Of a stretch of 42,322 bases of DNA, positions 3,206 to 37,294 are shown one piece after another; position 1 is the first letter of the stretch, and each line of letters opens with the position of its first letter. Position numbers and translations under genes: made by a program. The notes under the pieces are model-generated. The model was not told the origin of the DNA. It did no database searches and saw only the letters and a list, made by a program, of their open reading frames with translations. Origin of the DNA: a virus; the UHGV virus genome UHGV-0136707; one strand, 5' to 3'.

Positions 3206-3222
3206 AGAATTATTAGAGCAAT
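3206..3222 (-). promoter_or_regulatory. C1-operator-like site (immC region)
   Basis: 15/17 match, reverse orientation, 44 bp right of loxP. Confidence 0.55.
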
Positions 3223-3282
3223 AAATTTTGAGAGAAAAATCCCACTCCACCAGCCAAAAACTGGATTGTTTTTCATAGTTGT

Positions 3283-3309
3283 TTGACAATTGCTCTAATA
3301 AATTATAGT
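3283..3309 (+). promoter_or_regulatory. promoter overlapped by a C1 operator (immC, drives coi/c1 direction)
   Basis: -35 TTGACA (3283-3288), operator ATTGCTCTAATAAATTA (3289-3305, 16/17), -10 TATAGT (3304-3309). Confidence 0.65.
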
Positions 3310-9593: not shown

Positions 9594-9974
9594 TCAGGTC
9601 TTGGAACCATATAGTTCACGTAGCTTTTCTGCGACTGAAGATACGGCGATTTCACCAGTTGCAGCCCCTACGGTAAGGTCTACCAGTTCAGGTGAGTCAA
9701 ATACCTGCACCCCGTTACGGCGTAGGAATAGCAGCGCACTGTTTAGCGCGGTACGCTTATTGGCATCATTGAATATATGCCCTCTCGCAGTAGCCACCAG
9801 GTAGGTTGCGGAGACTTCGAAAAGGTCGGTAATCTCTTCGTACACAACTCTGGCCTGGACTCTCCCGATAATGGCCTCTGCCCTGCCCGGATCTGACATA
9901 CCAGGCAGGCCGCCGTAGCGGCTTATATTCGCATCATGAAGCGCTATCAGTTCTTCCGGTGATATATGCCTCAT
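9594..9974 (-). CDS. doc: Doc toxin (Fic-fold kinase) of the phd-doc addiction module
   Basis: 126-aa ORF ([43 protein letters not shown]...) recognisable as P1 Doc. Overlaps the phd stop by 1 nt. Confidence 0.96.
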
Positions 9975-10195
9975 TATCGGTTAACCAGTTCCTTGTTGGT
10001 GGAGTCCAGGGTGTCAAACAGGGATGCAAATTCAGCATCCAGCGCCGCTTTTTTGTAGGCTTCGAAAGTAGCCTTGCTGACAATTACTGCTGGCTCACGG
10101 CCTCTGCGGGTGATTTCAACCTCTTCCCCGGCTTCAACATTGTTGAGCACTTCAGAAAGGTTGCCGCGCGCGGTACGGAAGTTAATGGATTGCAT
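9974..10195 (-). CDS. phd: Phd antitoxin
   Basis: 73 aa from ATG at 10195 ([56 protein letters not shown]...), recognisable as P1 Phd. The ORF track extends it 2 codons to an upstream GTG. GAGGTG Shine-Dalgarno. Confidence 0.95.
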
Positions 10196-10203
10196 AAACA
10201 CCT

Positions 10204-10267: not shown

Positions 10268-10657
10268 TTAAATCACCGGACAATCATCAAATTCCCCACT
10301 TCGGGCATCATTGATGACATGAGTGATCACACCAAAAACAGCATTACTACCCGTGTAACCATCGTCATCTACTGGTAACGCCTCTTTCTTCCCGGTGCTT
10401 AAATCCTCCAGGTGCTGGCGCGGATACTTTCGGTATCTCTTTATGCGATATTCACCCTCCATAGCGCAGACAAGCAGCGAACCATCAACCGGAGTAAGCG
10501 AGGAATCAACCACCAGCAAAGCACCCTGCAATATTCCCTCACGGTGATGGCTGTCTGCCGCCCGCATGAAGTAGGTCGCTGATGGATGCCTGATTAGTTG
10601 CTGATCAAGAGAAATTCGGCTTTCAACATAATCCGCCGCAGGAGAAGGGAAGCCCAT
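10268..10657 (-). CDS. humD: HumD, UmuD-like S24 peptidase (SOS mutagenesis homologue)
   Basis: 129-aa ORF with an S24/LexA-like peptidase fold (..LLVVDSSLTPVDGSLLVCAMEGEYRIKR..). A perfect LexA box lies 22 nt upstream. Confidence 0.88.
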   Translation of the reverse strand: MGFPSPAADYVESRISLDQQLIRHPSATYFMRAADSHHREGILQGALLVVDSSLTPVDGSLLVCAMEGEYRIKRYRKYPRQHLEDLSTGKKEALPVDDDGYTGSNAVFGVITHVINDARSGEFDDCPVI

Positions 10658-10831: not shown

Positions 10832-11413
10832 ATGCCTGCCCGCATTCCTCTCGATCCTGTATTGCCCAAAAATTTTGACTGCACTCCTAACGAGAAACGC
10901 TCTAAAGCTCAGCTGGACGTCTGGTGGGACCATCCCTATGGGGTTACACAACCTGACGGGAAAATTGTTGTTTATTGTCTGAATGGTGGCGCGTGGGACC
11001 GTCCATCCGTGCTTGGTTTGGCAAATAACTATGATGAAGCCTGTGAACTTGCCGAAGGGCAGCAGGCTAGATGGGTGAAAACACGGTCACAGCCGACATT
11101 CATGTTTTCAAAAGAACCGCCATTTATACTGGCGAGGATGCCGCAGCGACCGGATCATCAACAAGAAATTGTTGCTGAATTTTCCTCAAGGGATGAGATG
11201 AATCTCTTCTCATTAAAGCAGGAAGAAAGGGAGCGCGTCGACGTGTCTCCAACTCTCGACCACAACCGGATGAACCTGGCCCAACTCGCCTGGTACAGCA
11301 AAGAATTAGAGATGTCTATTGCCCGACTTGAAAACGAAAAAGCCGCTATCCAAGCCCAGCATGAAGTAGTTCTGAACCGGATTAGAGAAATGCAAAACGA
11401 TAATAGAGGCTAA
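10832..11413 (+). CDS. hypothetical protein divergent from humD
   Basis: 193-aa ORF with an AAGGA Shine-Dalgarno. It shares the intergenic region holding the LexA box, so it might be the P1 lxr equivalent; that is a guess. Confidence 0.55.
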   Translation: MPARIPLDPVLPKNFDCTPNEKRSKAQLDVWWDHPYGVTQPDGKIVVYCLNGGAWDRPSVLGLANNYDEACELAEGQQARWVKTRSQPTFMFSKEPPFILARMPQRPDHQQEIVAEFSSRDEMNLFSLKQEERERVDVSPTLDHNRMNLAQLAWYSKELEMSIARLENEKAAIQAQHEVVLNRIREMQNDNRG

Positions 11414-11473
11414 ATCGAGGTAGAAAACACATTGTTTAAGGCCACTAATTGTGGCCTCAAAGGGGAGAGATGC

Positions 11474-12025
11474 TTATTTGCTATGGCTAAAAATCAAATG
11501 AGACACTTCATGTGGTTGTAGCTCGTCAAGATCCGGGGCCACAAAACCTTTTCCGAAAGACTTCACAAGTAATTTACCAGCCGCATCATTGTCACCTATT
11601 ACACGAAAGTCATACGGCAGCATCGCAAGTTGACGGCGTAATCCTGCGGAGAAAGTCGAACCTAACAGCGCCCACGAATTGCCGCCCGCATTGTGTACAG
11701 CTGCGCTCTTAAAAATAGACTCAGTTATCCATATTGGGCCATCTTTTAAAGGAAGATAGGTTCCCCAAAGTAACTGTCTGCCGTGTGATCGCGTGAAATA
11801 CCGGGCCATCTTCGGATTGCTATGCTGCTTAGGAGCACCTGGTCTATATGTCTGATACCCAGCCAACATCCCATCAAACCTGTATAGAGGGAATGTAACT
11901 ACTCCTTCGCTTTCATCGATCCACTGTCTATATGGGTGTATATCATGGCGGTAGTTACGAGTTAGCAAATGAGCTTCCAGCTTTCCAAATTTTGTCATAT
12001 TCCGTTCTTCCTGCATACTGGGCAT
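11474..12025 (-). CDS. hypothetical protein with possible Toprim-like motif
   Basis: 183-aa ORF. The stretch VIGDNDAAGK resembles a Toprim DxD motif; weak, unverified. Confidence 0.55.
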   Translation of the reverse strand: MPSMQEERNMTKFGKLEAHLLTRNYRHDIHPYRQWIDESEGVVTFPLYRFDGMLAGYQTYRPGAPKQHSNPKMARYFTRSHGRQLLWGTYLPLKDGPIWITESIFKSAAVHNAGGNSWALLGSTFSAGLRRQLAMLPYDFRVIGDNDAAGKLLVKSFGKGFVAPDLDELQPHEVSHLIFSHSK

Positions 12026-12300
12026 GTGTTCTCTGTGAAATATGGGAAACTATTATCCAGCTCATCTACCCACTGTTTATGGTCGAAGCAGAAAAATATC
12101 TCCCACGGCATTCCATATTCTTCCATCCATAGGCGGATCTGCATTTCTATTGGAATCGGCGGTATTGCAGACACCATATCAACAGGATAACAGTTCAGAC
12201 GACGTTCCAGTTCTTCTACTCTCTTCTGGAGATGAAATATCCGATCCAGATGCACACGCCGCTCCCGTGCCATTTTAAAATAAAGCTCGCCGGTCATCAT
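11995..12300 (-). CDS. small coiled-coil protein with C-terminal Cys/His motif (paralog A)
   Basis: 101-aa ORF. C-terminus PWEIFFCFDHKQWVDELDNSFPYFTENTCPVCR is clearly paralogous to the next gene. Confidence 0.55.
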   Translation of the reverse strand: MMTGELYFKMARERRVHLDRIFHLQKRVEELERRLNCYPVDMVSAIPPIPIEMQIRLWMEEYGMPWEIFFCFDHKQWVDELDNSFPYFTENTCPVCRKNGI

Positions 12301-12596
12301 TAACTCCTACATTCAGGGCAAGAGTTCCCTTCCGCAAAATAGGGGAAACTGCTATCAAGCTCATCACACCATCTGCGATGGTCGTAGCACCAAAACGCCT
12401 CCCACGGTGCACGGAAATACTTCATCCACCAGGACACTCGATCAGGTATATCTGCTGGTGGCAGCTCTTCTGGCAATAATTTGCCTGATAATTCCCTTTC
12501 CGCCCGCGCCAGCATTCCTTTTAGACTCGCATTCTCTTTTTCAAGAATCTCTATGCGCGCCTGTAACTCAGCTTTCGTTGGCATGGTCCGCCTCAT
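12300..12596 (-). CDS. small coiled-coil protein with C-terminal Cys/His motif (paralog B)
   Basis: C-terminus PWEAFWCYDHRRWCDELDSSFPYFAEGNSCPECRS. Start set at an internal ATG (12596; 12584 also possible), because the track's start at 12665 overlaps the upstream gene by 98 nt. Confidence 0.5.
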   Translation of the reverse strand: MRRTMPTKAELQARIEILEKENASLKGMLARAERELSGKLLPEELPPADIPDRVSWWMKYFRAPWEAFWCYDHRRWCDELDSSFPYFAEGNSCPECRS

Positions 12597-13248
12597 GCTT
12601 TTCAGCCACCAGCGGCAATAAAGCCCTGGCCATCTTATGAACCAATAGTGCATCAATAATGCCAAGCGTATGCCCCGGCTTAATGTTTAATGCCGCCTCA
12701 AGGTGACACCTTTCCAAGCCACTTTTCTCGGCTTGTTTATGATGATCTGGCGTAATAACGTCGCCCAAAACACGGCTAATTCTTTCTCGTAATTGCTGGG
12801 TGCCAGCACACTTGATCGCTGTATCGTGGAGACGGTTAACCAGTTCGCGATAAACATGCGGCTTAATGCGGATACGTCCACCGGTGACGCCCTTTCCTGG
12901 CGCTGACACCGAACTATCCGGAATATCCGGATAGTTGCCAGCCTCGTAAGCTACCCGCAGCCAGTGCATGAATGTTTCAGTGGACACACAACCACAGTCC
13001 ACATCGATTTTTCCGCGTTGCTGTTCCAGCCACTGCTCAAAATTCAATCTACACGTATTACTTTCATGTTGCTCTTTTTGTCTCAAGGCCAGTACCTGTT
13101 GGGCCAGTTCCAGAACGATACCGGGTGACGCTAACCTCTCAAATTCCAATAAATAGTTTGTGTCAGGATGACAAGTAGCCTCGCCTGCAAAAAATACCAA
13201 TTGCTGTAAGTATGCTGTCGTTAGAGTAGTCATTTCTTTTTGCGCCAT
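12568..13248 (-). CDS. hypothetical protein
   Basis: 226-aa ORF in the same minus-strand run. No recognisable domain. Confidence 0.55.
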   Translation of the reverse strand: MAQKEMTTLTTAYLQQLVFFAGEATCHPDTNYLLEFERLASPGIVLELAQQVLALRQKEQHESNTCRLNFEQWLEQQRGKIDVDCGCVSTETFMHWLRVAYEAGNYPDIPDSSVSAPGKGVTGGRIRIKPHVYRELVNRLHDTAIKCAGTQQLRERISRVLGDVITPDHHKQAEKSGLERCHLEAALNIKPGHTLGIIDALLVHKMARALLPLVAEKHEADHANES

Positions 13249-13604
13249 TTCTTTTCACATTCCTTAGTCCATTTTTCAATGTTCATTTTGGCAATATCAG
13301 TCATTCCGTCACCCAAGAAATACTTTTTCCGGTATGTCTTGCACTTAAACCACACTACAACAGCCACCAGCCAGAAAATAAAAGGCCATACAGCAATGCC
13401 AACGACAGCCGCGATAAAGCCCAATAGCCATAAATGAAGCTCTCCAACTTCTGTTTCCGGCAATATTCTTAAAGAATTAAACAGCAGGGTGAACGAATGG
13501 TCGTATGCATTGGCAGTATAAGACATGCAATCCATATAATTAAAGTCATAGCCTGCGGCTGCCGCCCATAATGGGCGGTCAAGAAAATGTTTTAGTGTCA
13601 TCAT
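13230..13604 (-). CDS. hypothetical membrane protein
   Basis: 124-aa ORF with a hydrophobic segment (LWLLGFIAAVVGIAVWPFIFWLVAVVVWF) and a Lys-rich tail. Confidence 0.5.
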   Translation of the reverse strand: MMTLKHFLDRPLWAAAAGYDFNYMDCMSYTANAYDHSFTLLFNSLRILPETEVGELHLWLLGFIAAVVGIAVWPFIFWLVAVVVWFKCKTYRKKYFLGDGMTDIAKMNIEKWTKECEKKWRKKK

Positions 13605-13610
13605 ATAAAT

Positions 13611-14000
13611 TTAAGGTTCAGACCAGTTATCTTCAATAGCAATGCTTAATCTTTGTAGCCATTCTGCTAATTTCAGCATTGCTTCTCTTTCGCTTAAACC
13701 ACGAGGAAAATCATCAAGCGAAATTGTTGGCTTGAAGCCCCCGTAATTATCCATTTCAACTGTCAGATTTTGTTCCAGCACGGTATTTCTTACACGGCTA
13801 TTGTGCCGGAGCAAATATACTGAGCGTGATTTATTGGTTTTGTGGTCGAGCTGATATTCGGTAAGTATCATCTGGCTTTTGCCATGACTATTACCTCTCC
13901 ACATACTTACCTCACTTAATAAAACAACTCCATGCGTAGTTGATGATTTTTTCCCACGTAATATAAATCTGCACTCCGGCAGTAAAACCAAAGCCAACAA
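13611..14000 (-). CDS. hypothetical protein
   Basis: 129-aa ORF. Its N-terminal part overlaps an alternative 40-codon hydrophobic ORF (start near 14034), so the true start is uncertain. Confidence 0.4.
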   Translation of the reverse strand: MLALVLLPECRFILRGKKSSTTHGVVLLSEVSMWRGNSHGKSQMILTEYQLDHKTNKSRSVYLLRHNSRVRNTVLEQNLTVEMDNYGGFKPTISLDDFPRGLSEREAMLKLAEWLQRLSIAIEDNWSEP

Positions 14001-14082
14001 TTGCTGAAAAAATCAAAACATTTACTTTTGACATTATAAATTTTCTCTCGGTGTCGTAGGTGATAGCACCATAATTTCTAAT

Positions 14083-14334
14083 TTAGTGAGTTAGCAGTTC
14101 CATTTTTTGGATGATTTCCGCATGAGCATCATCGTTGTCAACACTTAACTCGTTTAATGCCTCTCGCACTACATCAACTTCTTCTGGTTGGAAGAAGTCA
14201 TCTCGGTAGTCACCAAATAGAACCGAAACAAGCCTGCCACCAGCAACATCAAGATTGGCGCTAACAGGTGGCTCTTTACCATCCTCAAATTCGACTACAA
14301 AAGTTAATTTCCCCATCGTTACCACCAGCGACAA
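14083..14334 (-). CDS. hypothetical acidic small protein
   Basis: 83-aa ORF in the operon run. Confidence 0.45.
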   Translation of the reverse strand: MSLVVTMGKLTFVVEFEDGKEPPVSANLDVAGGRLVSVLFGDYRDDFFQPEEVDVVREALNELSVDNDDAHAEIIQKMELLTH

Positions 14335-14398
14335 ATTGAATACAAACCCAGCGCTGCCGCCATCACAATTCCTACCGTGGTGAATGCTTCAGGCCAGC

Positions 14399-14974
14399 TC
14401 ATGGATTCACCTCCTGCGGCGGTTCTGGTAGCGGCATCCAGTACAAGGCGTTCCCTAACCACGATAAAGTGCCGTCGCTCAACTCCACGTATTCCCCTTG
14501 TACCTGTCCTGCCATATACTCGCCGTGCTTTGAATAAATTAAAATCCAATCATCTTGAGCGGGCATTCGCTCACTACAGCTTATCCAACCATCCGGAGTT
14601 ACCGGATAGTTGCCCGACAGCTCGTTCAACTTGTAAGTTTGGCTTACAGGTTCGGCTTCCAGTTCTGCAATGCGCTTCTCTGCAGCTTCCAGCTCAACGC
14701 GCAGCTTCCCTACCGTTAGCGCAATTTCCTCGTTCTCCTGGTCGCGGCGTTTGATGTATTGCTGGTTTCTTTCCCGTTCATCCAGCAGCGCCAGCACGGT
14801 TTCTGGTCCGGTCAGAAATTTGAAGGCGTTGAGCGCATCAATATCCACACCGTAATCCTTAAGTTCCTGTTCACTTAACAAATCATCATCAACTGGCAAC
14901 ATTAACAGGCGTTCCATTGCCGGAATTGCACGTTCTGCCGCCTCACGCAGTGCCTGATAGTTAATTTTGGTCAT
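14399..14974 (-). CDS. Ead/Ea22-like protein
   Basis: 191-aa ORF with coiled-coil middle and DUF551-like C-terminus. N-terminus (MTKINYQALREAAERA) parallels the ORF at 15272-15961. Confidence 0.65.
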   Translation of the reverse strand: MTKINYQALREAAERAIPAMERLLMLPVDDDLLSEQELKDYGVDIDALNAFKFLTGPETVLALLDERERNQQYIKRRDQENEEIALTVGKLRVELEAAEKRIAELEAEPVSQTYKLNELSGNYPVTPDGWISCSERMPAQDDWILIYSKHGEYMAGQVQGEYVELSDGTLSWLGNALYWMPLPEPPQEVNP

Positions 14975-14975
14975 A

Positions 14976-15275
14976 TCACATCCCCCTGAAGCCGTTGCAT
15001 TTACGTAAAAAATCGCAGATATAGCCCTTCATTTTTTCGTGCCAATCTCGATCATTCCCATTGCACCAACCATCAGGTGGAGTCCAGTTTTCTATCAGAG
15101 CAGCCATTTTCTTTGCTTTCGCCGGAGTAGCTGTTGCGGTATCGCAGTAATGACGAGTGTCAACCAACGTATCCATACCATCGATATCAAGTACGCAAAA
15201 CCATGTGTGATTCGGCATTTCAACAGATGGTATTTGTTGCCCACGTCGACGTTTATCAATAAGACATACAGTCAC
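14976..15275 (-). CDS. hypothetical protein
   Basis: 99-aa ORF coupled between the two Ea22-like genes. Confidence 0.45.
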   Translation of the reverse strand: MTVCLIDKRRRGQQIPSVEMPNHTWFCVLDIDGMDTLVDTRHYCDTATATPAKAKKMAALIENWTPPDGWCNGNDRDWHEKMKGYICDFLRKCNGFRGM

Positions 15276-15961
15276 TGGTTGCCTCCTTTGCGAAGCTGGG
15301 CAGCAAAGTCAACTAACCACTCAGTCATTTCAACCTTCCCTACCAGGTCTGAACCAGGGTGCATACAGCAATCACTCTGCGCCGCTTTGAAATCCTTATA
15401 CTCATATTCTTGGGCCACCAGATTTTTTGCAGCTTCTATAGCAGCATCCACCCCCTGCGCCCGCACTTCAGACAGGAAAGCATCAGTGGCTGGAATGGGC
15501 TTTTGTGGTGATATAGCAATGCGAATTGTCTCAAGGTCTGGATCTGTTTCCGCTGCTGGCACCTTGATATAACCCATCTGCACCCCATTCATGATGAATC
15601 TGCGACGGTCATCACATATCGCCTTTAGCCCCGCATTCTCCGCCACCAGCGCCGCGAGATTAGTCTCAAGCTCTGCAATTCGACACATAGCATCAATATT
15701 TGTGTCCTCCAGGCACTTAATTTCACCAAGCAGCTCCAGTGCAACCTTTGGGTTGAACGCGGCAACATGACGAGCGTTGTTCTCTGCATTTTTCTGTCCA
15801 TCAAAGCCGGTCCATTTGATAACGTCTTCACATCGTTCATCACCGGGCGTGTGCACCGCATAAGTACCAGTATCCGTCGAAATAAATGCGACCCATTCGT
15901 CTGGTGTTGCCTTTTCTGCCGCCTCACGCAGTACCTGATAGTCAATTGTCATTCTCGCCAT
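15272..15961 (-). CDS. Ead/Ea22-like protein
   Basis: 229-aa ORF. N-terminus (MARMTIDYQVLREAAEKA) is paralogous to 14399-14974. Confidence 0.65.
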   Translation of the reverse strand: MARMTIDYQVLREAAEKATPDEWVAFISTDTGTYAVHTPGDERCEDVIKWTGFDGQKNAENNARHVAAFNPKVALELLGEIKCLEDTNIDAMCRIAELETNLAALVAENAGLKAICDDRRRFIMNGVQMGYIKVPAAETDPDLETIRIAISPQKPIPATDAFLSEVRAQGVDAAIEAAKNLVAQEYEYKDFKAAQSDCCMHPGSDLVGKVEMTEWLVDFAAQLRKGGNQ

Positions 15962-16593
15962 CCTTCACAGTTGTAATCACTACAGCCTTCAAAATCATAT
16001 GGGCTGTACTGCCAGGTTATTTTTCCGCAATGCGGACAATTCCAACGCACCTTCCCGCTTCGCGACTTCTTTCTTCTGTTCTGCTCTTTCAACCAGTCAG
16101 GCATGACCAAACCTGCGCCCTGAACCATTGTTCTGCGGTTAAAGTTATTGATATTGAACGTCCGGCGCTTTGCTGCATCAGCAATGGAAAATGGCAACCA
16201 AACTATTCCTGGTTCGTTTTTGTTGGCGACGCTAAAGATGGTCGCTTTACTGAAGTCATCTGTTGGCAATCCACCGTGTTGAAGCCAGTAAACATCGTTG
16301 CCGTTCCAGCTACCTTTTTTGTAGGCCACATACTCAGTGCAATCTGACTCAATCAGGCTTTCTGTAGGGATGTACTGGCAATCAACGTGCCACACAGCCA
16401 TTGCATCCACACTATCGGCACAAACAGGCTGATCGATATCTCGCCCACAATTCCAGGCTTTTTGGGCTTCTTCCAGCGTGTAAACATGAGCGCGATCGAT
16501 ATCAGAACTGTAACCATTGCCGTTATGGCAATGGAATGAGGCGTTATTACCCACAGTTTCACGCAAGCACATCATGTAAAAACGGTTACTCAC
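15949..16593 (-). CDS. hypothetical protein with C-terminal zinc-ribbon-like motif
   Basis: 214-aa ORF with C-terminal CPHCGK...CSDYNCEG. Confidence 0.55.
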   Translation of the reverse strand: MSNRFYMMCLRETVGNNASFHCHNGNGYSSDIDRAHVYTLEEAQKAWNCGRDIDQPVCADSVDAMAVWHVDCQYIPTESLIESDCTEYVAYKKGSWNGNDVYWLQHGGLPTDDFSKATIFSVANKNEPGIVWLPFSIADAAKRRTFNINNFNRRTMVQGAGLVMPDWLKEQNRRKKSRSGKVRWNCPHCGKITWQYSPYDFEGCSDYNCEGWRE

Positions 16594-16801
16594 TGGATGC
16601 CTCCCAGCAAATTTGTCTTATATAAGAACTGTTAACGCGCTTTACTTTCCCGTCGAACTCCAGTTTCTTTAGACGACGCAAAACGTATGCCGTTTTGAGT
16701 GTGCGATATTTATCCCTAAGCCAGTTGGTCACGACGTAAGTCATACAGCGCCCGTGTTCTTCCAACACCCGAACTATTTCTTCGTCGGTTGGCTTGCTCA
16801 T
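16586..16801 (-). CDS. hypothetical small protein
   Basis: 71-aa ORF coupled to its neighbours. Confidence 0.4.
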   Translation of the reverse strand: MSKPTDEEIVRVLEEHGRCMTYVVTNWLRDKYRTLKTAYVLRRLKKLEFDGKVKRVNSSYIRQICWEASSE

Positions 16802-17019
16802 TTTGTCGCTCCTTCAGCTTTCTCTACTTTCGCTGCCATGATTTCCAGCTTTTGTGCTGCCGATGCCGCTAACCTGTGAAATTCTTCATCTGTTTCAACT
16901 GGAATTGGTACAAACCTGACACCAATTTGAGCAAGGCTATGCGCCATTTCGAGACTTGTTCTTAACTCTGCTGGGGATGCTTTATTCAGGCCGACTTCCT
17001 CACAAATAACTGATTGCAT
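16798..17019 (-). CDS. hypothetical small protein
   Basis: 73-aa ORF coupled to its neighbours. Confidence 0.4.
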   Translation of the reverse strand: MQSVICEEVGLNKASPAELRTSLEMAHSLAQIGVRFVPIPVETDEEFHRLAASAAQKLEIMAAKVEKAEGATK

Positions 17020-17028
17020 ACGCTCGCC

Positions 17029-17754
17029 CTACTGAATACGCTCAAACTCGATTACCCAAACCCAGGGATTAGCACTCCAGCTTTCTTCGCCGTAGATGGA
17101 TTCCCACAGGCGCTGGAACGCAACCTTGGCCATTGCGAAATCCCCCTTGGGAGTAAGGAATGTTCCCGGGTGATCAGGAAGCAAACTTCCAGCAGGCGGA
17201 ACGCCCTCATCCCTTGCATCGCATTCGCTGATATCGTTCAACCGCTCAACGCGCACGTTGGTAATTTCCAACAGGATGCGTGATGCCCATCGCGGCATGT
17301 GAATTGATGGACGCCACCCACCATCAAACTTTTCATTCACAGTGTGAGGTTTCCAGTCGGCATCATCGGGTATCGACCATAAGCCGTAATCACCAGGTTT
17401 TTGCTCGCAACTGGCCCGATAAATCCTTGCTGCGTTCTTCTCATCGCCACGACAAAGGTTGTCGTTCCAGTCCACACTGCAACCATCCTCATTGCCTAAT
17501 ATCGCCCATGTTTCACGAACCCAAATTCGATCGCCGACGATACCAAAGGGGCAATTGAAAACACTGCTTACACCATCAGCCCCGTACCACTGAAAACCTG
17601 CACCAATTTTTCTAACCATCACTGGTGCTTCTGGACCAACTTCCGCAGGCTGATTTTTCATTATCCGCCGCGTCTGCGTTTTCCTTCCTTCGAGGATGGC
17701 CCGGACCATCTCATCGTTGAAAATCATGCCGCGCTCTTTCACTTCGCCTTTCAT
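17029..17754 (-). CDS. ASCH-domain-like protein
   Basis: 241-aa ORF. The MIFNDEMVRAILEGRKTQTRR motif is typical of phage ASCH-domain proteins. Strong AAGGGGGA Shine-Dalgarno. Confidence 0.6.
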   Translation of the reverse strand: MKGEVKERGMIFNDEMVRAILEGRKTQTRRIMKNQPAEVGPEAPVMVRKIGAGFQWYGADGVSSVFNCPFGIVGDRIWVRETWAILGNEDGCSVDWNDNLCRGDEKNAARIYRASCEQKPGDYGLWSIPDDADWKPHTVNEKFDGGWRPSIHMPRWASRILLEITNVRVERLNDISECDARDEGVPPAGSLLPDHPGTFLTPKGDFAMAKVAFQRLWESIYGEESWSANPWVWVIEFERIQ

Positions 17755-17932: not shown

Positions 17933-17949
17933 AGATTTATTAGAGCAAT
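17933..17949 (-). promoter_or_regulatory. C1-operator-like site
   Basis: 16/17 match (AGATTTATTAGAGCAAT reverse) in the gap upstream of the ASCH gene. Confidence 0.6.
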
Positions 17950-18455
17950 TATTGTTGATGAAGAAGCGCGTTTTCATACTCCCTGACCATTAACGTAAGT
18001 ACACCGTGACTTCTGAAAACACGCGCCACTTCAATCTTATCTTCCAGCGCGAACGCGATTTTACTTAGACCAATTTTCTTAAGGAGATCAATCTTTGCTG
18101 GGCCGTCATTTCTGTCATCGGTGGCAGGACGCATAGATAGCAAAGGCTCAGCCCCGTTTGTTACGTACTTCCGCAGCCAGGCTCGTGTTTTATCCCTTGC
18201 GATCTCACAGCGCCCGGTTACAAACCAGACCGTGTAAACGTTAAATAACTGGCGCACCATATCAATAACTGGAGTGATGGGAGTATCGGTGTCACAGGCA
18301 AGGTTAAACTCGTTCCAGTGCTCTGTTAATGCACCTTTGCCAGGTGGTGGAAGCAAATGCAGCCTGTCTTCCGTTGCCTCTGATATCGTCCCATCAATAT
18401 CTACTATGACGATGTACGGACGTTCCTGGTGTGCGTGTTTATTGAAAATACTCAA
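17949..18455 (-). CDS. HAD-superfamily phosphatase (PNK 3'-phosphatase-like)
   Basis: 168-aa ORF with the HAD motif I (IVIVDIDGT). Confidence 0.65.
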   Translation of the reverse strand: MSIFNKHAHQERPYIVIVDIDGTISEATEDRLHLLPPPGKGALTEHWNEFNLACDTDTPITPVIDMVRQLFNVYTVWFVTGRCEIARDKTRAWLRKYVTNGAEPLLSMRPATDDRNDGPAKIDLLKKIGLSKIAFALEDKIEVARVFRSHGVLTLMVREYENALLHQQ

Positions 18456-33744: not shown

Positions 33745-33772
33745 ATTACACTAATAAATTTATTAGAGCAAT
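33745..33772. promoter_or_regulatory. bipartite overlapping C1 operator upstream of the tRNA-tci-ban operon
   Basis: Perfect 17/17 operator in reverse orientation (33756-33772) overlapping a 15/17 forward copy (33745-33761). Sits at the dmt stop, upstream of the tRNA/ban transcription unit; P1 ban is known to be C1-controlled. Confidence 0.7.
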
Positions 33773-36929: not shown

Positions 36930-37278
36930 GTTGTAACCCTTGAATATCAACCACAGAAAGCTCGTCTTTGTAGAAAAAGGCCAGGTTGTGGCACCCCCTC
37001 GTTTGAGCGTATGAGCTGGGACCAATTTCGTTCTTCCAGACAAATGGCTTCAAATCCGTACGGCGAAGCATAAAAACGCGATTTGTTCCGCTCTGATTCC
37101 CAATGAGGCAAAAGCCTTCTTTCACCTTGATAGCCTGCAAGTTGTCGAGTTCACCGCTGGTTACACGGCTATCGAACTCCTTGCGGCTTATTAGCTCCAT
37201 CTGCATCTGACGACTCCAAACAAATGCCCATTGAAGGGCGATGGCTGAATGGTACCGAAAACACGACATAAAAAACAA
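36922..37278 (-). CDS. uhr: hypothetical protein upstream of hrdC
   Basis: 118-aa ORF (start may be internal). An operator-like 17-mer lies at its 5' end. Confidence 0.45.
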
Positions 37279-37294
37279 TATTTATTAGAGCAAT
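37278..37294 (-). promoter_or_regulatory. C1-operator-like site between uhr and the PAAR operon
   Basis: 16/17 match (ATATTTATTAGAGCAAT reverse) in the divergent region. Confidence 0.6.

What the first reader, a model, noticed from the sequence alone, without database searches (positions are those of the whole stretch)
11474..13248. Tandem paralogous small coiled-coil proteins with a conserved Cys/His C-terminal motif
The adjacent ORFs at 11995-12300 and 12300-12596 share a conserved C-terminal block (PWE(I/A)F(F/W)C(F/Y)DH(K/R)(Q/R)W(V/C)DELD(N/S)SFPYF(T/A)E..CP(V/E)CR) after heptad-like N-termini. The conserved C, H and CPxC suggest a zinc-binding module. They are flanked by a 183-aa protein with a possible Toprim-like motif and a 226-aa hypothetical. 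Duplicated small zinc-binding proteins in a phage accessory operon are candidates for anti-defence or host-takeover factors.
Basis: seen in the sequence. Interest (0 to 1): 0.55.

Follow-up and report, generated by a model that had tools for sequence, protein, structure and literature searches.

The report
Tandem coiled-coil zinc-finger accessory phage proteins
Two neighbouring small genes in a variable, non-essential region of a P1-like phage-plasmid are real, old duplicates that encode a coiled-coil helix plus an uncatalogued four-ligand (Cys/His) probable zinc-binding domain; what they do is unknown, and they are probably dispensable early-gene add-ons.

Summary
ORFs 11995-12300 (A, 101 aa) and 12300-12584/12596 (B, 94/98 aa), both on the minus strand, share a 54-residue C-terminal block (52% identity, E=4e-22). 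Both have heptad N-termini.

Both belong to PHROG 3797 (function unknown). This is a small family: 37 clusters at 50% identity among 1.84 billion proteins. C-x2-H-x18/19-C-x2-C is nearly invariant, and the His is replaced by Cys in one subfamily, as expected of a metal ligand.

No Pfam, NCBIfam or PADLOC model covers the domain. A confident AlphaFold model (pLDDT 93.6) has no PDB neighbour. The domain is acidic and rich in aromatic residues, which fits protein binding better than nucleic-acid binding.

B alleles show dN/dS of 0.15-0.29, yet B is frameshifted in D6-type elements. A tandem B-like/A-like pair also occurs in a divergent phage, and B/A chimeras exist.

The genes sit near the end of a C1-operator-controlled operon, in the published variable region 8 of P1-like phage-plasmids. 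There B takes the place of pmgV. Elsewhere the family lies in nin or pre-integrase early regions.

The neighbouring 174-aa Toprim protein belongs to the T5.076 family and is not a conserved partner, so I reject a split-primase reading. An anti-defence or host-takeover role is plausible but untested. Interest is modest.

The parts
12300..12584 (-). Paralogue B, 94 aa (an alternative upstream ATG at 12596 gives 98 aa). It is the common resident allele of this slot in P1-like phage-plasmids. RefSeq WP_001142392.1.
   Evidence: ORF. PHROG 3797 E=1.1e-57. A GAGG lies 6 nt before the ATG at 12584, and the start overlaps the pmgU-like stop by 17 nt. RefSeq CDS. Present in 141 PLSDB plasmids at 80-100% identity. 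dN/dS 0.15-0.29.
11995..12300 (-). Paralogue A, 101 aa, RefSeq WP_000988220.1. It is the rarer add-on copy.
   Evidence: ORF. PHROG 3797 E=1.6e-36. Its start overlaps B's stop as TAATG, with AGGAG upstream. Found in only 14 PLSDB plasmids, all at least 99.7% identical and all with the Toprim gene. It is 61-72% identical to A-type proteins of prophages.
12486..12575 (-). B N-terminal heptad (coiled-coil) segment, residues 4-33. Core positions are L7, I11, L14, N18, L21, L25, A28 and L32.
   Evidence: Read from the sequence. Heptad score 0.75, shuffle p=0.012. Only weak, sub-threshold bZIP and TolA_bind_tri matches.
12303..12464 (-). B C-terminal CHCC domain, residues 41-94. Putative ligands are C66, H69, C89 and C92.
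12193..12294 (-). A N-terminal helix / heptad segment, residues 3-36.
   Evidence: AlphaFold helix H3-36. Heptad score 0.75, shuffle p=0.018. L24, L31 and L35 are invariant among close relatives.
11998..12165 (-). A C-terminal CHCC domain, residues 46-101. Putative ligands are C71 (12088-12090), H74 (12079-12081), C93 (12022-12024) and C96 (12013-12015).
   Evidence: Family alignment. AlphaFold domain model with pLDDT 93.6: C71 lies at the end of a short strand, H74 in the turn that follows, and C93/C96 at the start of the last helix. No PDB neighbour.
11474..11998 (-). Stand-alone Toprim (primase-core-like) protein, 174 aa. It is translationally coupled to A by an ATGA overlap. It belongs to the phage T5 gene T5.076 family and is an independent module.
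   Evidence: PHROG 849 'DNA primase', positions 143-333 of 435, E=1e-53. All homologues are 159-185 aa. 42.5% identical to T5.076, which is 172 aa. Present in 489 phage records. Genes upstream of distant homologues are not CHCC proteins.
12568..13248 (-). PmgU-like protein, 226 aa. The mosaic junction with P1 lies at its 3' end: P1 continues into pmgV, whereas this element continues into B.
   Evidence: Residues 114-214 are 92% identical to P1 PmgU. P1 gene map. The RCS47 and D6 matches start at window ~12306.
17933..17977 (-). C1 repressor operator (17933-17949, one mismatch to the consensus) overlapping a sigma-70-like promoter (17977-17948). It is the equivalent of P1 Op88/PpmgT and is the probable start of the operon that ends with B, A and Toprim.
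   Evidence: Operator search, promoter scan, P1 annotation of OpmgT between pap and pmgT, and the same pap/pmgT order in the window. Read-through over 6.4 kb is inferred, not shown.
11435..11461 (-). Terminator-like hairpin after the Toprim gene, shared with the convergent lxr gene. It is the probable operon end.
   Evidence: sequence.
12391..12422 (-). Protospacer inside B (codons for YFRAPWEAFW). It is identical to a 32-nt type I-E CRISPR spacer in the chromosome of E. coli LI60C3 and is preceded by ATG on the crRNA-sense strand.

Best explanation
A and B are two anciently diverged members of one small family of accessory proteins of temperate enterobacterial phages (PHROG 3797).

Each protein is a roughly 30-residue leucine-zipper-like helix that probably dimerises or oligomerises, possibly also as an A/B pair. 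A proline-rich linker follows. The last ~50 residues form an acidic, aromatic-rich domain that is probably held together by one zinc ion. The proposed ligands are Cys-x2-His from a short hairpin and Cys-x2-Cys at the start of the last helix, which is a treble-clef-like arrangement.

In this element the genes are the second- and third-from-last cistrons of the C1-repressed pmgT operon. They are translationally coupled in the order pmgU-like -> B -> A -> Toprim. They would therefore be made when repression is lifted, that is, on infection or induction.

The most likely mode of action is as a small multivalent protein-binding adaptor or inhibitor that sequesters or modulates a host (or competing-element) protein. 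The domain is unlikely to be an enzyme or a DNA binder.

Shown here: paralogy, coding status, ligand-like conservation, a confident fold prediction, patchy accessory distribution and operon position. Inferred: zinc binding, oligomerisation, timing of expression and protein-target binding. The target is unknown.
For: - Paralogy: E=4e-22.
- Family membership and size: PHROG 3797; 37 clusters at 50% identity among 1.84 billion proteins, almost all 90-115 aa.
- Ligand behaviour: C71 is invariant; H74, C93 and C96 are conserved in at least 90% of members. His is replaced by Cys in P0038, P0042 and the P22-like SE1 copy.
- Fold: the C-domain model has pLDDT 93.6, with C-x2-H at a strand/turn and C-x2-C at a helix N-terminus.
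- Heptads and helix.
- Composition: the C-domain has median net charge -4.5, median pI 4.8 and about 10 aromatic residues out of about 52. This argues against nucleic-acid binding.
- Selection: dN/dS 0.15-0.29 among B alleles.
- Dispensability: B is frameshifted in D6, pN17S0016-2 and pZ1323CEC0010-3. The slot is a published variable region, and the P1 genes there are non-essential.
- Accessory early-region contexts in unrelated phages: just upstream of integrase genes, between ninF and ninG in P22-like SE1, and after the replication genes in Proteus phage Brookers.
- Old, retained duplication: a divergent contig (L010) also carries a tandem B-like then A-like pair, at 62% and 61% identity.
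- Operon: C1 operator plus promoter at 17933-17977, a terminator at 11435-11461, and overlapping start/stop codons.
Against: - No metal binding, oligomerisation, expression or partner has been measured.
- No known family or solved structure resembles the domain, so the function cannot be transferred.
- I could not inspect the model coordinates, so the ligand geometry is inferred from secondary structure only.
- No conserved neighbour gene points to a pathway.
- The acidic composition would also fit a structural or scaffolding role.
- One member (P0052) lacks the last two cysteines.
Confidence: 0.45

Rival explanations
1. Split primase. The CHCC domain would be a detached DnaG-type CHC2 zinc-binding domain that supplies template recognition in trans to the adjacent Toprim protein, which lacks a zinc-binding domain.
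For: - The ligand pattern C-x2-H-x18-C-x2-C resembles DnaG C-x2-H-x17-C-x2-C (my own knowledge of DnaG; sequence).
- A is translationally coupled to a 174-aa primase-core-like protein that matches only positions 143-333 of a 435-position primase profile.
- A always co-occurs with Toprim in the 14 plasmids that have it.
Against: - No PF01807 hit in any of 34 members, even at E<=1.
- The family occurs without any Toprim gene in RCS47, D6, prophages and P22-like phages.
- Toprim homologues are found in 489 phage records, against 17 for the CHCC family.
- Genes upstream of distant Toprim homologues are unrelated to the CHCC family.
Confidence: 0.04
2. Nucleic-acid-binding regulator. The protein would be a dimeric zipper plus zinc finger that binds DNA or RNA to control phage or host genes.
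For: - Weak bZIP and leucine-zipper similarities in four members, best E=0.006, all below the Pfam cut-offs.
- A has a basic stretch (KMARERR) ahead of its zipper.
- Zinc fingers often bind nucleic acids (general knowledge).
Against: - The conserved domain is acidic (median net charge -4.5, pI 4.8). Its conserved residues are W, F, Y, E, D, P and L, with no conserved basic residues.
- B and most other members have no basic region before the zipper.
- No helix-turn-helix or known DNA-binding family is matched.
Confidence: 0.13
3. DksA/TraR-like binder of the RNA polymerase secondary channel: a coiled coil followed by a four-ligand zinc finger, as in TraR and lambda Orf73.
For: - The overall layout, a helix followed by a four-ligand zinc site with 17-19 residue spacing, recalls zf-dskA_traR.
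- TraR-like genes occur in the same kind of phage early-left region (both points from my own knowledge, not tested here).
Against: - No PF01258 hit in 34 members.
- No conserved acidic tip motif at the N-terminus.
- The zinc site is at the extreme C-terminus, with no helix following it.
Confidence: 0.05
4. Virion-morphogenesis accessory factor that functionally replaces PmgV, which occupies the same slot in P1 and is also a short coiled-coil protein.
For: - B sits exactly where pmgV sits in P1, overlapping the end of pmgU.
- PmgV is a 120-aa coiled-coil protein annotated 'putative morphogenetic function'.
Against: - There is no homology to PmgV (hhalign probability 0.14%).
- pmgT, pmgU and pmgV are non-essential in P1.
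- The family occurs in nin and pre-integrase early regions of siphoviruses and podoviruses with unrelated virions.
- B is a pseudogene in phage D6.
Confidence: 0.08
5. Antitoxin of a toxin-antitoxin pair, as the RefSeq name 'antitoxin PHD' on some B alleles suggests.
For: Some B alleles (for example WP_221582548.1) are named 'antitoxin PHD' in RefSeq/PLSDB.
Against: - No PhdYeFM (PF02604) or any other antitoxin family is matched.
- The true phd/doc pair lies 2 kb away, at 9594-10201.
- There is no conserved downstream toxin partner: the downstream gene is A, Toprim, an opposite-strand ORF or an integrase, depending on the element.
- The name looks like an annotation artefact.
Confidence: 0.02

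Closest known systems
PHROG 3797 (phage protein family of unknown function) / RefSeq hypothetical proteins WP_000988220.1 and WP_001142392.1
   Same: Both window proteins match the profile end to end (E=1.6e-36 and 1.1e-57) and are identical to these RefSeq entries.
   Different: The family carries no functional, structural or domain description. The CHCC ligand pattern, the A/B subfamilies and the tandem arrangement are described here, not in the source databases.
Treble-clef zinc fingers (a structural class: a zinc knuckle plus the N-terminus of a helix)
   Same: The predicted placement of ligands fits: Cys-x2-His at a short hairpin, and Cys-x2-Cys at the start of the C-terminal helix. The class definition is from my own knowledge.
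DnaG-type CHC2 zinc-binding domain (Pfam PF01807)
   Same: The same ligand types in the same order with nearly the same spacing, and adjacency to a primase-type Toprim gene in this window.
   Different: No profile, profile-profile or fold similarity. The gene linkage is not conserved.
P1 PmgV (gp097)
   Same: It occupies the same genomic slot, directly after and overlapping pmgU. It is of similar size, has a coiled-coil N-terminus, and is non-essential.
   Different: The sequences are unrelated, and PmgV has no Cys/His domain. They are alternative cassettes, not homologues.
DksA/TraR family (Pfam PF01258; e.g. F-plasmid TraR and lambda Orf73)
   Same: Small proteins of mobile elements with a helical arm plus a four-ligand zinc site of similar spacing (my own knowledge).
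   Different: No sequence or fold match. The domain order at the C-terminus differs, and there is no acidic tip.

Membership tests
PHROG 3797 | Significant full-length match to the family profile | tested here: met
   A: E=1.6e-36 over profile positions 1-94 of 94. B: E=1.1e-57 over 1-94 of 94.
DnaG-type zf-CHC2 (PF01807) | Cys-x2-His ... Cys-x2-Cys ligand set with about 17-residue spacing | tested here: met
   The spacing is x18 in A and x19 in B. Pattern only.
DnaG-type zf-CHC2 (PF01807) | Match to the family profile | tested here: not met
   No PF01807 hit at E<=1 for A, B or any of 34 relatives. hhalign against the E. coli DnaG N-terminus gives probability 0.5%.
DnaG-type zf-CHC2 (PF01807) | Zinc-ribbon fold | tested here: not met
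DnaG-type zf-CHC2 (PF01807) | Conserved fusion or linkage to a Toprim primase core | tested here: not met
   The linkage is seen only in 14 near-identical plasmids. It is absent from the other contexts examined and from the neighbourhoods of distant Toprim homologues.
DksA/TraR zinc finger (PF01258) | Profile match; C4 finger followed by a C-terminal helix; acidic coiled-coil tip | tested here: not met
   No Pfam hit, no structural match, and no conserved acidic N-terminal motif.
Phd/YefM antitoxin (PF02604) | Profile match and a cognate downstream toxin | tested here: not met
   No hit. The downstream genes vary between elements.
bZIP transcription factors (PF00170 / PF07716) | Score above the gathering threshold, and a conserved basic region N-terminal to the zipper | tested here: not met
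   Best E=0.006, with 11-13 bits against cut-offs of 22-28 bits. The basic region is not conserved in the family.
Treble-clef zinc finger (structural class) | Two ligands from a knuckle or hairpin and two from the first turn of a helix, around one zinc ion | tested here: inconclusive
   The positions of the ligands relative to predicted secondary structure fit. Coordinates could not be inspected, no metal was modelled, and there is no structural hit.
Zinc-binding protein (general) | Stoichiometric bound zinc | not testable with these tools
   Only conservation and the His-to-Cys exchange at a ligand position support it.
Known anti-phage defence proteins (PADLOC-DB 2.0) | Match to any model | tested here: not met
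   No hit for A, B, Toprim, PmgU-like or three neighbouring proteins.
Toprim domain (for the flanking 174-aa protein) | Conserved Glu and DxD motifs, and similarity to primase Toprim cores | tested here: met
   ...ITESIF... and ...GDNDAAG... are in the sequence. PHROG 849 E=1e-53. Homologue P0024 carries PF13155. 42.5% identical to T5.076. Pfam itself gave no hit for the window protein.

The most novel reading that the evidence does not exclude
The ~50-residue C-terminal module would be a previously undescribed zinc-stabilised fold: no Pfam model and no PDB neighbour. On a dimerising zipper, it would act as a dedicated inhibitor of a host protein, for example a defence or DNA-metabolism factor. 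The retained A and B subfamilies, and their recombinant chimeras, would reflect diversification against variant targets.
Probability: 0.2. Interest if true: 0.6.

Novelty: new variant of a known kind. Interest (0 to 1): 0.3.

Why it matters
If the domain is a true zinc module with a host target, it would add one more family to the catalogue of small phage effectors. It would also give a handle on what variable region 8 of the clinically widespread P1-like phage-plasmids contributes. About 140 of 5,426 complete E. coli genomes carry B.

As it stands, the practical value is in annotation:
- a domain definition (CHCC, treble-clef-like);
- corrected start codons;
- a flag that 'antitoxin PHD' on B alleles is a misnomer;
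- removal of the tempting 'split primase' reading.

It does not open a long-standing question. Uncharacterised small Cys/His proteins are common in phage accessory regions.

Tried and rejected
1. Split-primase zinc-binding-domain hypothesis. I raised it from the CHC2-like spacing and the coupling to a Toprim protein that lacks a zinc domain. I rejected it on Pfam, hhalign, fold and non-conserved linkage.

4. Sequence and profile searches of PDB chains. Only coiled-coil noise.

5. Pfam, NCBIfam and PADLOC scans. No family for the domain.

6. Guilt by association. I read seven contexts of family members and three of Toprim homologues. There is no conserved neighbour. A weak 'MARALL' similarity between the tail of PmgU and the gene upstream of a B-type homologue (E=0.5) is too weak to use.

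7. Homology to PmgV, the gene in the same slot in P1. None.

8. Literature. No paper mentions the accessions or the PHROG. The P1 phage-plasmid surveys do not treat these genes.

I could not run multimer prediction or inspect model coordinates.
Full report
**What the window is.** The region around the finding carries phd/doc (9594-10201), humD (10268-10657) and lxr (10832-11413). It matches P1-like phages and phage-plasmids at 92-100% identity. It is 99.9% identical to E. coli plasmid pKFu022_2 over 11400-12700.

**How this slot compares with P1.** In reference P1, the stretch between pmgU and lxr holds pmgV-upfM-upfN-upfO-hot. In this window the same stretch holds four minus-strand genes, in order of transcription:
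- a long PmgU-like gene (12568-13248);
- paralogue B (12300-12584);
- paralogue A (11995-12300);
- a Toprim gene (11474-11998).

PmgU-like residues 114-214 are 92% identical to P1 PmgU, and the similarity ends just before the stop codon. The mosaic junction is therefore at the 3' end of pmgU, and B is an alternative cassette to pmgV. PmgV and the family are not homologous (hhalign probability 0.14%).

**Check of the observation.** A and B align over 54 C-terminal residues at 52% identity, E=4e-22.

Both N-termini have a heptad pattern. The a/d positions are 75% L/I/V/M, with shuffle p=0.018 for A and 0.012 for B, and 17 of 33 family members reach p<=0.05. AlphaFold predicts a single helix over A residues 3-36.

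The sequence shows translational coupling throughout:
- the B start at 12584 overlaps the pmgU-like stop by 17 nt and has GAGG 6 nt upstream;
- the A start overlaps the B stop (TAATG) behind an AGGAG;
- the Toprim start at 11998 overlaps the A stop (ATGA).

RefSeq uses these same starts: B is 94 aa and Toprim is 174 aa.

**Are they genes?** Yes.
- B alleles from four plasmids/phages differ by up to 13% in DNA and give dN/dS of 0.15-0.29.
- Proteins of the family are recognisable down to about 25-40% identity in other phages.
- B is dispensable. It carries a 10-bp deletion in phage D6 and in pN17S0016-2, and a 1-bp deletion in pZ1323CEC0010-3.

**The family.** Both proteins match PHROG 3797, function unknown, end to end. 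A profile search of 1.84 billion representative proteins found only 37 clusters, nearly all 90-115 aa. Word-indexed searches of 5.8 billion proteins found 14 and 19.

The consensus of the conserved part is (V/I)P-x-(R)V-x2-WM-x-EY-x-LPWE-x-F-x-C-x-EH-x2-W-x2-ELDS-x-FPY-x6-C-x2-C. C71 is invariant. H74, C93 and C96 are conserved in at least 90% of members.

In P0038, P0042 and the copy in P22-like Salmonella phage SE1, the His is a Cys. SE1 reads CPECRGW...CRCKC. A His/Cys exchange at one position, with the other three positions kept, is what a metal ligand does. I take this as the best available evidence for zinc binding, which remains unmeasured.

**Structure.** The full-length model is moderate (pLDDT 75.8). 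The domain alone (A residues 46-101), predicted with a 35-sequence alignment, is confident (pLDDT 93.6, pTM 0.75). It has:
- a helix;
- a short helix;
- a two-residue strand ending at C71;
- a turn holding H74;
- a return bridge;
- a 16-residue coil (ELDNSFPYF...);
- a final helix that starts at C93-x2-C96.

Two ligands from a knuckle and two from a helix N-terminus is the treble-clef arrangement. That class definition is from my own knowledge, and I could not inspect the coordinates.

No Pfam-A, NCBIfam or PADLOC model covers the domain, whether scanned with A and B or with 34 relatives at E<=1.

**Composition.** Across the family the C-domain has median net charge -4.5, median pI 4.8, and about 10 aromatic residues in about 52. 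The conserved residues are aromatic, acidic or proline. None is basic. This points away from nucleic-acid binding and towards a protein-protein interface.

**Genomic contexts.**

In PLSDB:
- B occurs in 141 plasmids at 80-100% identity.
- A occurs in 14 plasmids, all at least 99.7% identical and all with the Toprim gene.
- The Toprim end of the query (positions 1-600) matched many plasmids with no A or B; 387 plasmid records matched some part of the 1.3-kb query.

Among 5,426 complete E. coli genomes, 146 have a match and 24 have both genes, almost all on plasmids.

RCS47 has B alone, followed by an unrelated opposite-strand ORF and hot.

Outside P1-like elements the family lies in early accessory regions:
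- a few genes, or one gene, upstream of the integrase in prophage contigs (L007, L011, L012, L028);
- next to a phd/Fic pair and an RNase T gene (L009);
- between ninF and ninG in P22-like SE1;
- right after the replication genes in Proteus phage Brookers;
- in Klebsiella phage LASTA;
- before the terminase genes (L029).

No neighbour is conserved.

One divergent contig (L010) has a B-type gene followed by an overlapping A-type gene, at 62% and 61% identity to the window proteins. The duplication is therefore old and the tandem order recurs. This hints at cooperation, for example a heteromeric zipper, or at split roles.

Recombinants exist: P0002, P0013 and P0014 join a B N-terminus to an A C-terminus, and P0035 fuses PmgU to B.

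**Regulation.** A C1 operator with one mismatch lies at 17933-17949 and overlaps a promoter-like site at 17977-17948, between pap and pmgT. That is where P1 has Op88/PpmgT. All genes from 17754 down to 11474 are on the minus strand. The best terminator-like hairpin is at 11461-11435. I infer a C1-repressed operon of about 6.4 kb, so A and B would be made on derepression. This is not shown.

**The published setting.** pmgT-humD is one of eight highly variable regions of P1-like phage-plasmids (PMC9603915). pmgT, pmgU, pmgV, upfN, upfO, hot and lxr are non-essential in P1 by CRISPRi (PMC10695390). A 2025 survey of defence and anti-defence systems in P1/D6 elements lists Dar/Ddr, Tad2, Rad, Abc2 and Mom, but nothing corresponding to this family.

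**The Toprim neighbour and the split-primase idea.** The 174-aa protein matches only the middle of a 435-position primase profile (PHROG 849 positions 143-333, E=1e-53). It has the Toprim Glu and DxD motifs.

Because C-x2-H-x18-C-x2-C resembles the DnaG CHC2 finger, I tested whether A or B is a detached primase zinc domain. All tests were negative:
- no PF01807 hit;
- hhalign probability 0.5% against the E. coli DnaG N-terminus;

The Toprim protein also belongs to a widespread family of stand-alone proteins. All homologues found are 159-185 aa. It is 42.5% identical to phage T5 gene T5.076, which is 172 aa, and the family occurs in 489 phage records. The upstream genes of distant members are unrelated to the CHCC family. 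The adjacency here is local.

**Most likely mechanism.** I commit to the following: small, oligomeric, zinc-stabilised protein-binding factors made early from a repressor-controlled operon. They act on a host or competitor protein, and the phage can do without them.

- Steps shown: paralogy, selection, ligand-like conservation, a confident fold, acidic and aromatic composition, and accessory distribution.
- Steps inferred: zinc, oligomerisation, timing and protein target.

I give this 0.45. Rivals are scored in their own section: DNA/RNA-binding regulator 0.13, morphogenetic factor 0.08, DksA/TraR-like 0.05, split primase 0.04, antitoxin 0.02. The remainder is 'something else'.

**Novelty and score.** The genes are already in databases as hypothetical proteins and as a PHROG of unknown function. 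New here are:
- the domain definition and its probable metal site;
- the absence of any curated family or structural neighbour;
- the A/B subfamilies with a recurring tandem order and chimeras.

This is a new variant of a known kind: small Cys/His proteins in phage accessory regions. It is not a surprise to a specialist, and no function follows yet. Interest 0.3.

Noticed in passing
window 12391-12422 (inside paralogue B); L030 1504-1535: A 32-nt spacer in the type I-E CRISPR array next to cas2e/cas1e of the E. coli LI60C3 chromosome is 100% identical to the B coding sequence (YFRAPWEAFW). On the crRNA-sense strand the protospacer is preceded by ATG, which is a functional I-E PAM to my knowledge. 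Seven chromosomal places matched in all; I looked at only this one.
   Followed up: partly
window 11474-11998 (-); L026 1489-2007; L027 1477-1992: The flanking Toprim protein belongs to a widespread family of stand-alone primase-core proteins with no zinc-binding or helicase-binding domain (all homologues found are 159-185 aa). It is 42.5% identical to T5.076 ('DNA primase', in the T5 tRNA region), and the family occurs in 489 phage records. In Kagunavirus Golestan the gene overlaps the end of a helicase gene. Its function appears untested.
   Followed up: partly
L022 1795-2079; RefSeq WP_221582548.1 and other B alleles: Some B alleles are named 'antitoxin PHD' in RefSeq/PLSDB. They have no Phd/YefM similarity and no toxin partner, so this is probably a propagated misannotation.
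   Followed up: partly
P0002, P0013, P0014, P0035 (metagenome/Logan proteins): Natural recombinants exist. A B-type N-terminal zipper is joined to an A-type C-domain in P0002, P0013 and P0014. P0035 (285 aa) is an in-frame PmgU::B fusion.
   Followed up: no
L005 2995-3350 (phage D6); L024; L025: B is a pseudogene in D6-type elements (a 10-bp or a 1-bp deletion). D6 'orf105' is a fragment of it.
   Followed up: yes
L023 896-1485 (plasmid of E. coli O45:H2 FWSEC0003): In this plasmid A is 100% identical to the window but the adjacent B is only 87% identical. Recombination break-points therefore fall at the A/B boundary.
   Followed up: no
window 13230-17754 (-): Between pmgT (truncated relative to P1: 241 aa against 309 aa) and the pmgU-like gene, the operon carries a run of lambdoid 'ea'-type genes absent from P1. 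These include two Ead/Ea22-like proteins with related N-termini (14399-14974 and 15272-15961), a 214-aa Cys-rich protein (15949-16593), and a 124-aa protein with hydrophobic stretches that look membrane-spanning (13230-13604, PHROG 2638).
   Followed up: no
window, 12 sites (e.g. 3206-3305, 20026-20091, 33745-33772, 37278-37294): The 17-nt P1 C1 operator consensus matches 12 times with up to 3 mismatches (0.2 expected by chance), including paired or overlapping sites.
   Followed up: no
L028 3799-4017 vs window 12568-12650: The gene upstream of a B-type homologue in a prophage contig also overlaps it by 17 nt. It ends with a 'KLMARALL' motif resembling the PmgU tail 'HKMARALLPLV' (BLASTP E=0.5 only). 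This may be a remnant of a conserved junction or may be chance.
   Followed up: partly
L004 2660-3010 (+), L005 2660-3010 (+): In RCS47 and D6, lxr is replaced by an unrelated 116-aa plus-strand ORF whose 3' end overlaps the 3' end of B by about 16 nt, so the two genes converge.
   Followed up: no
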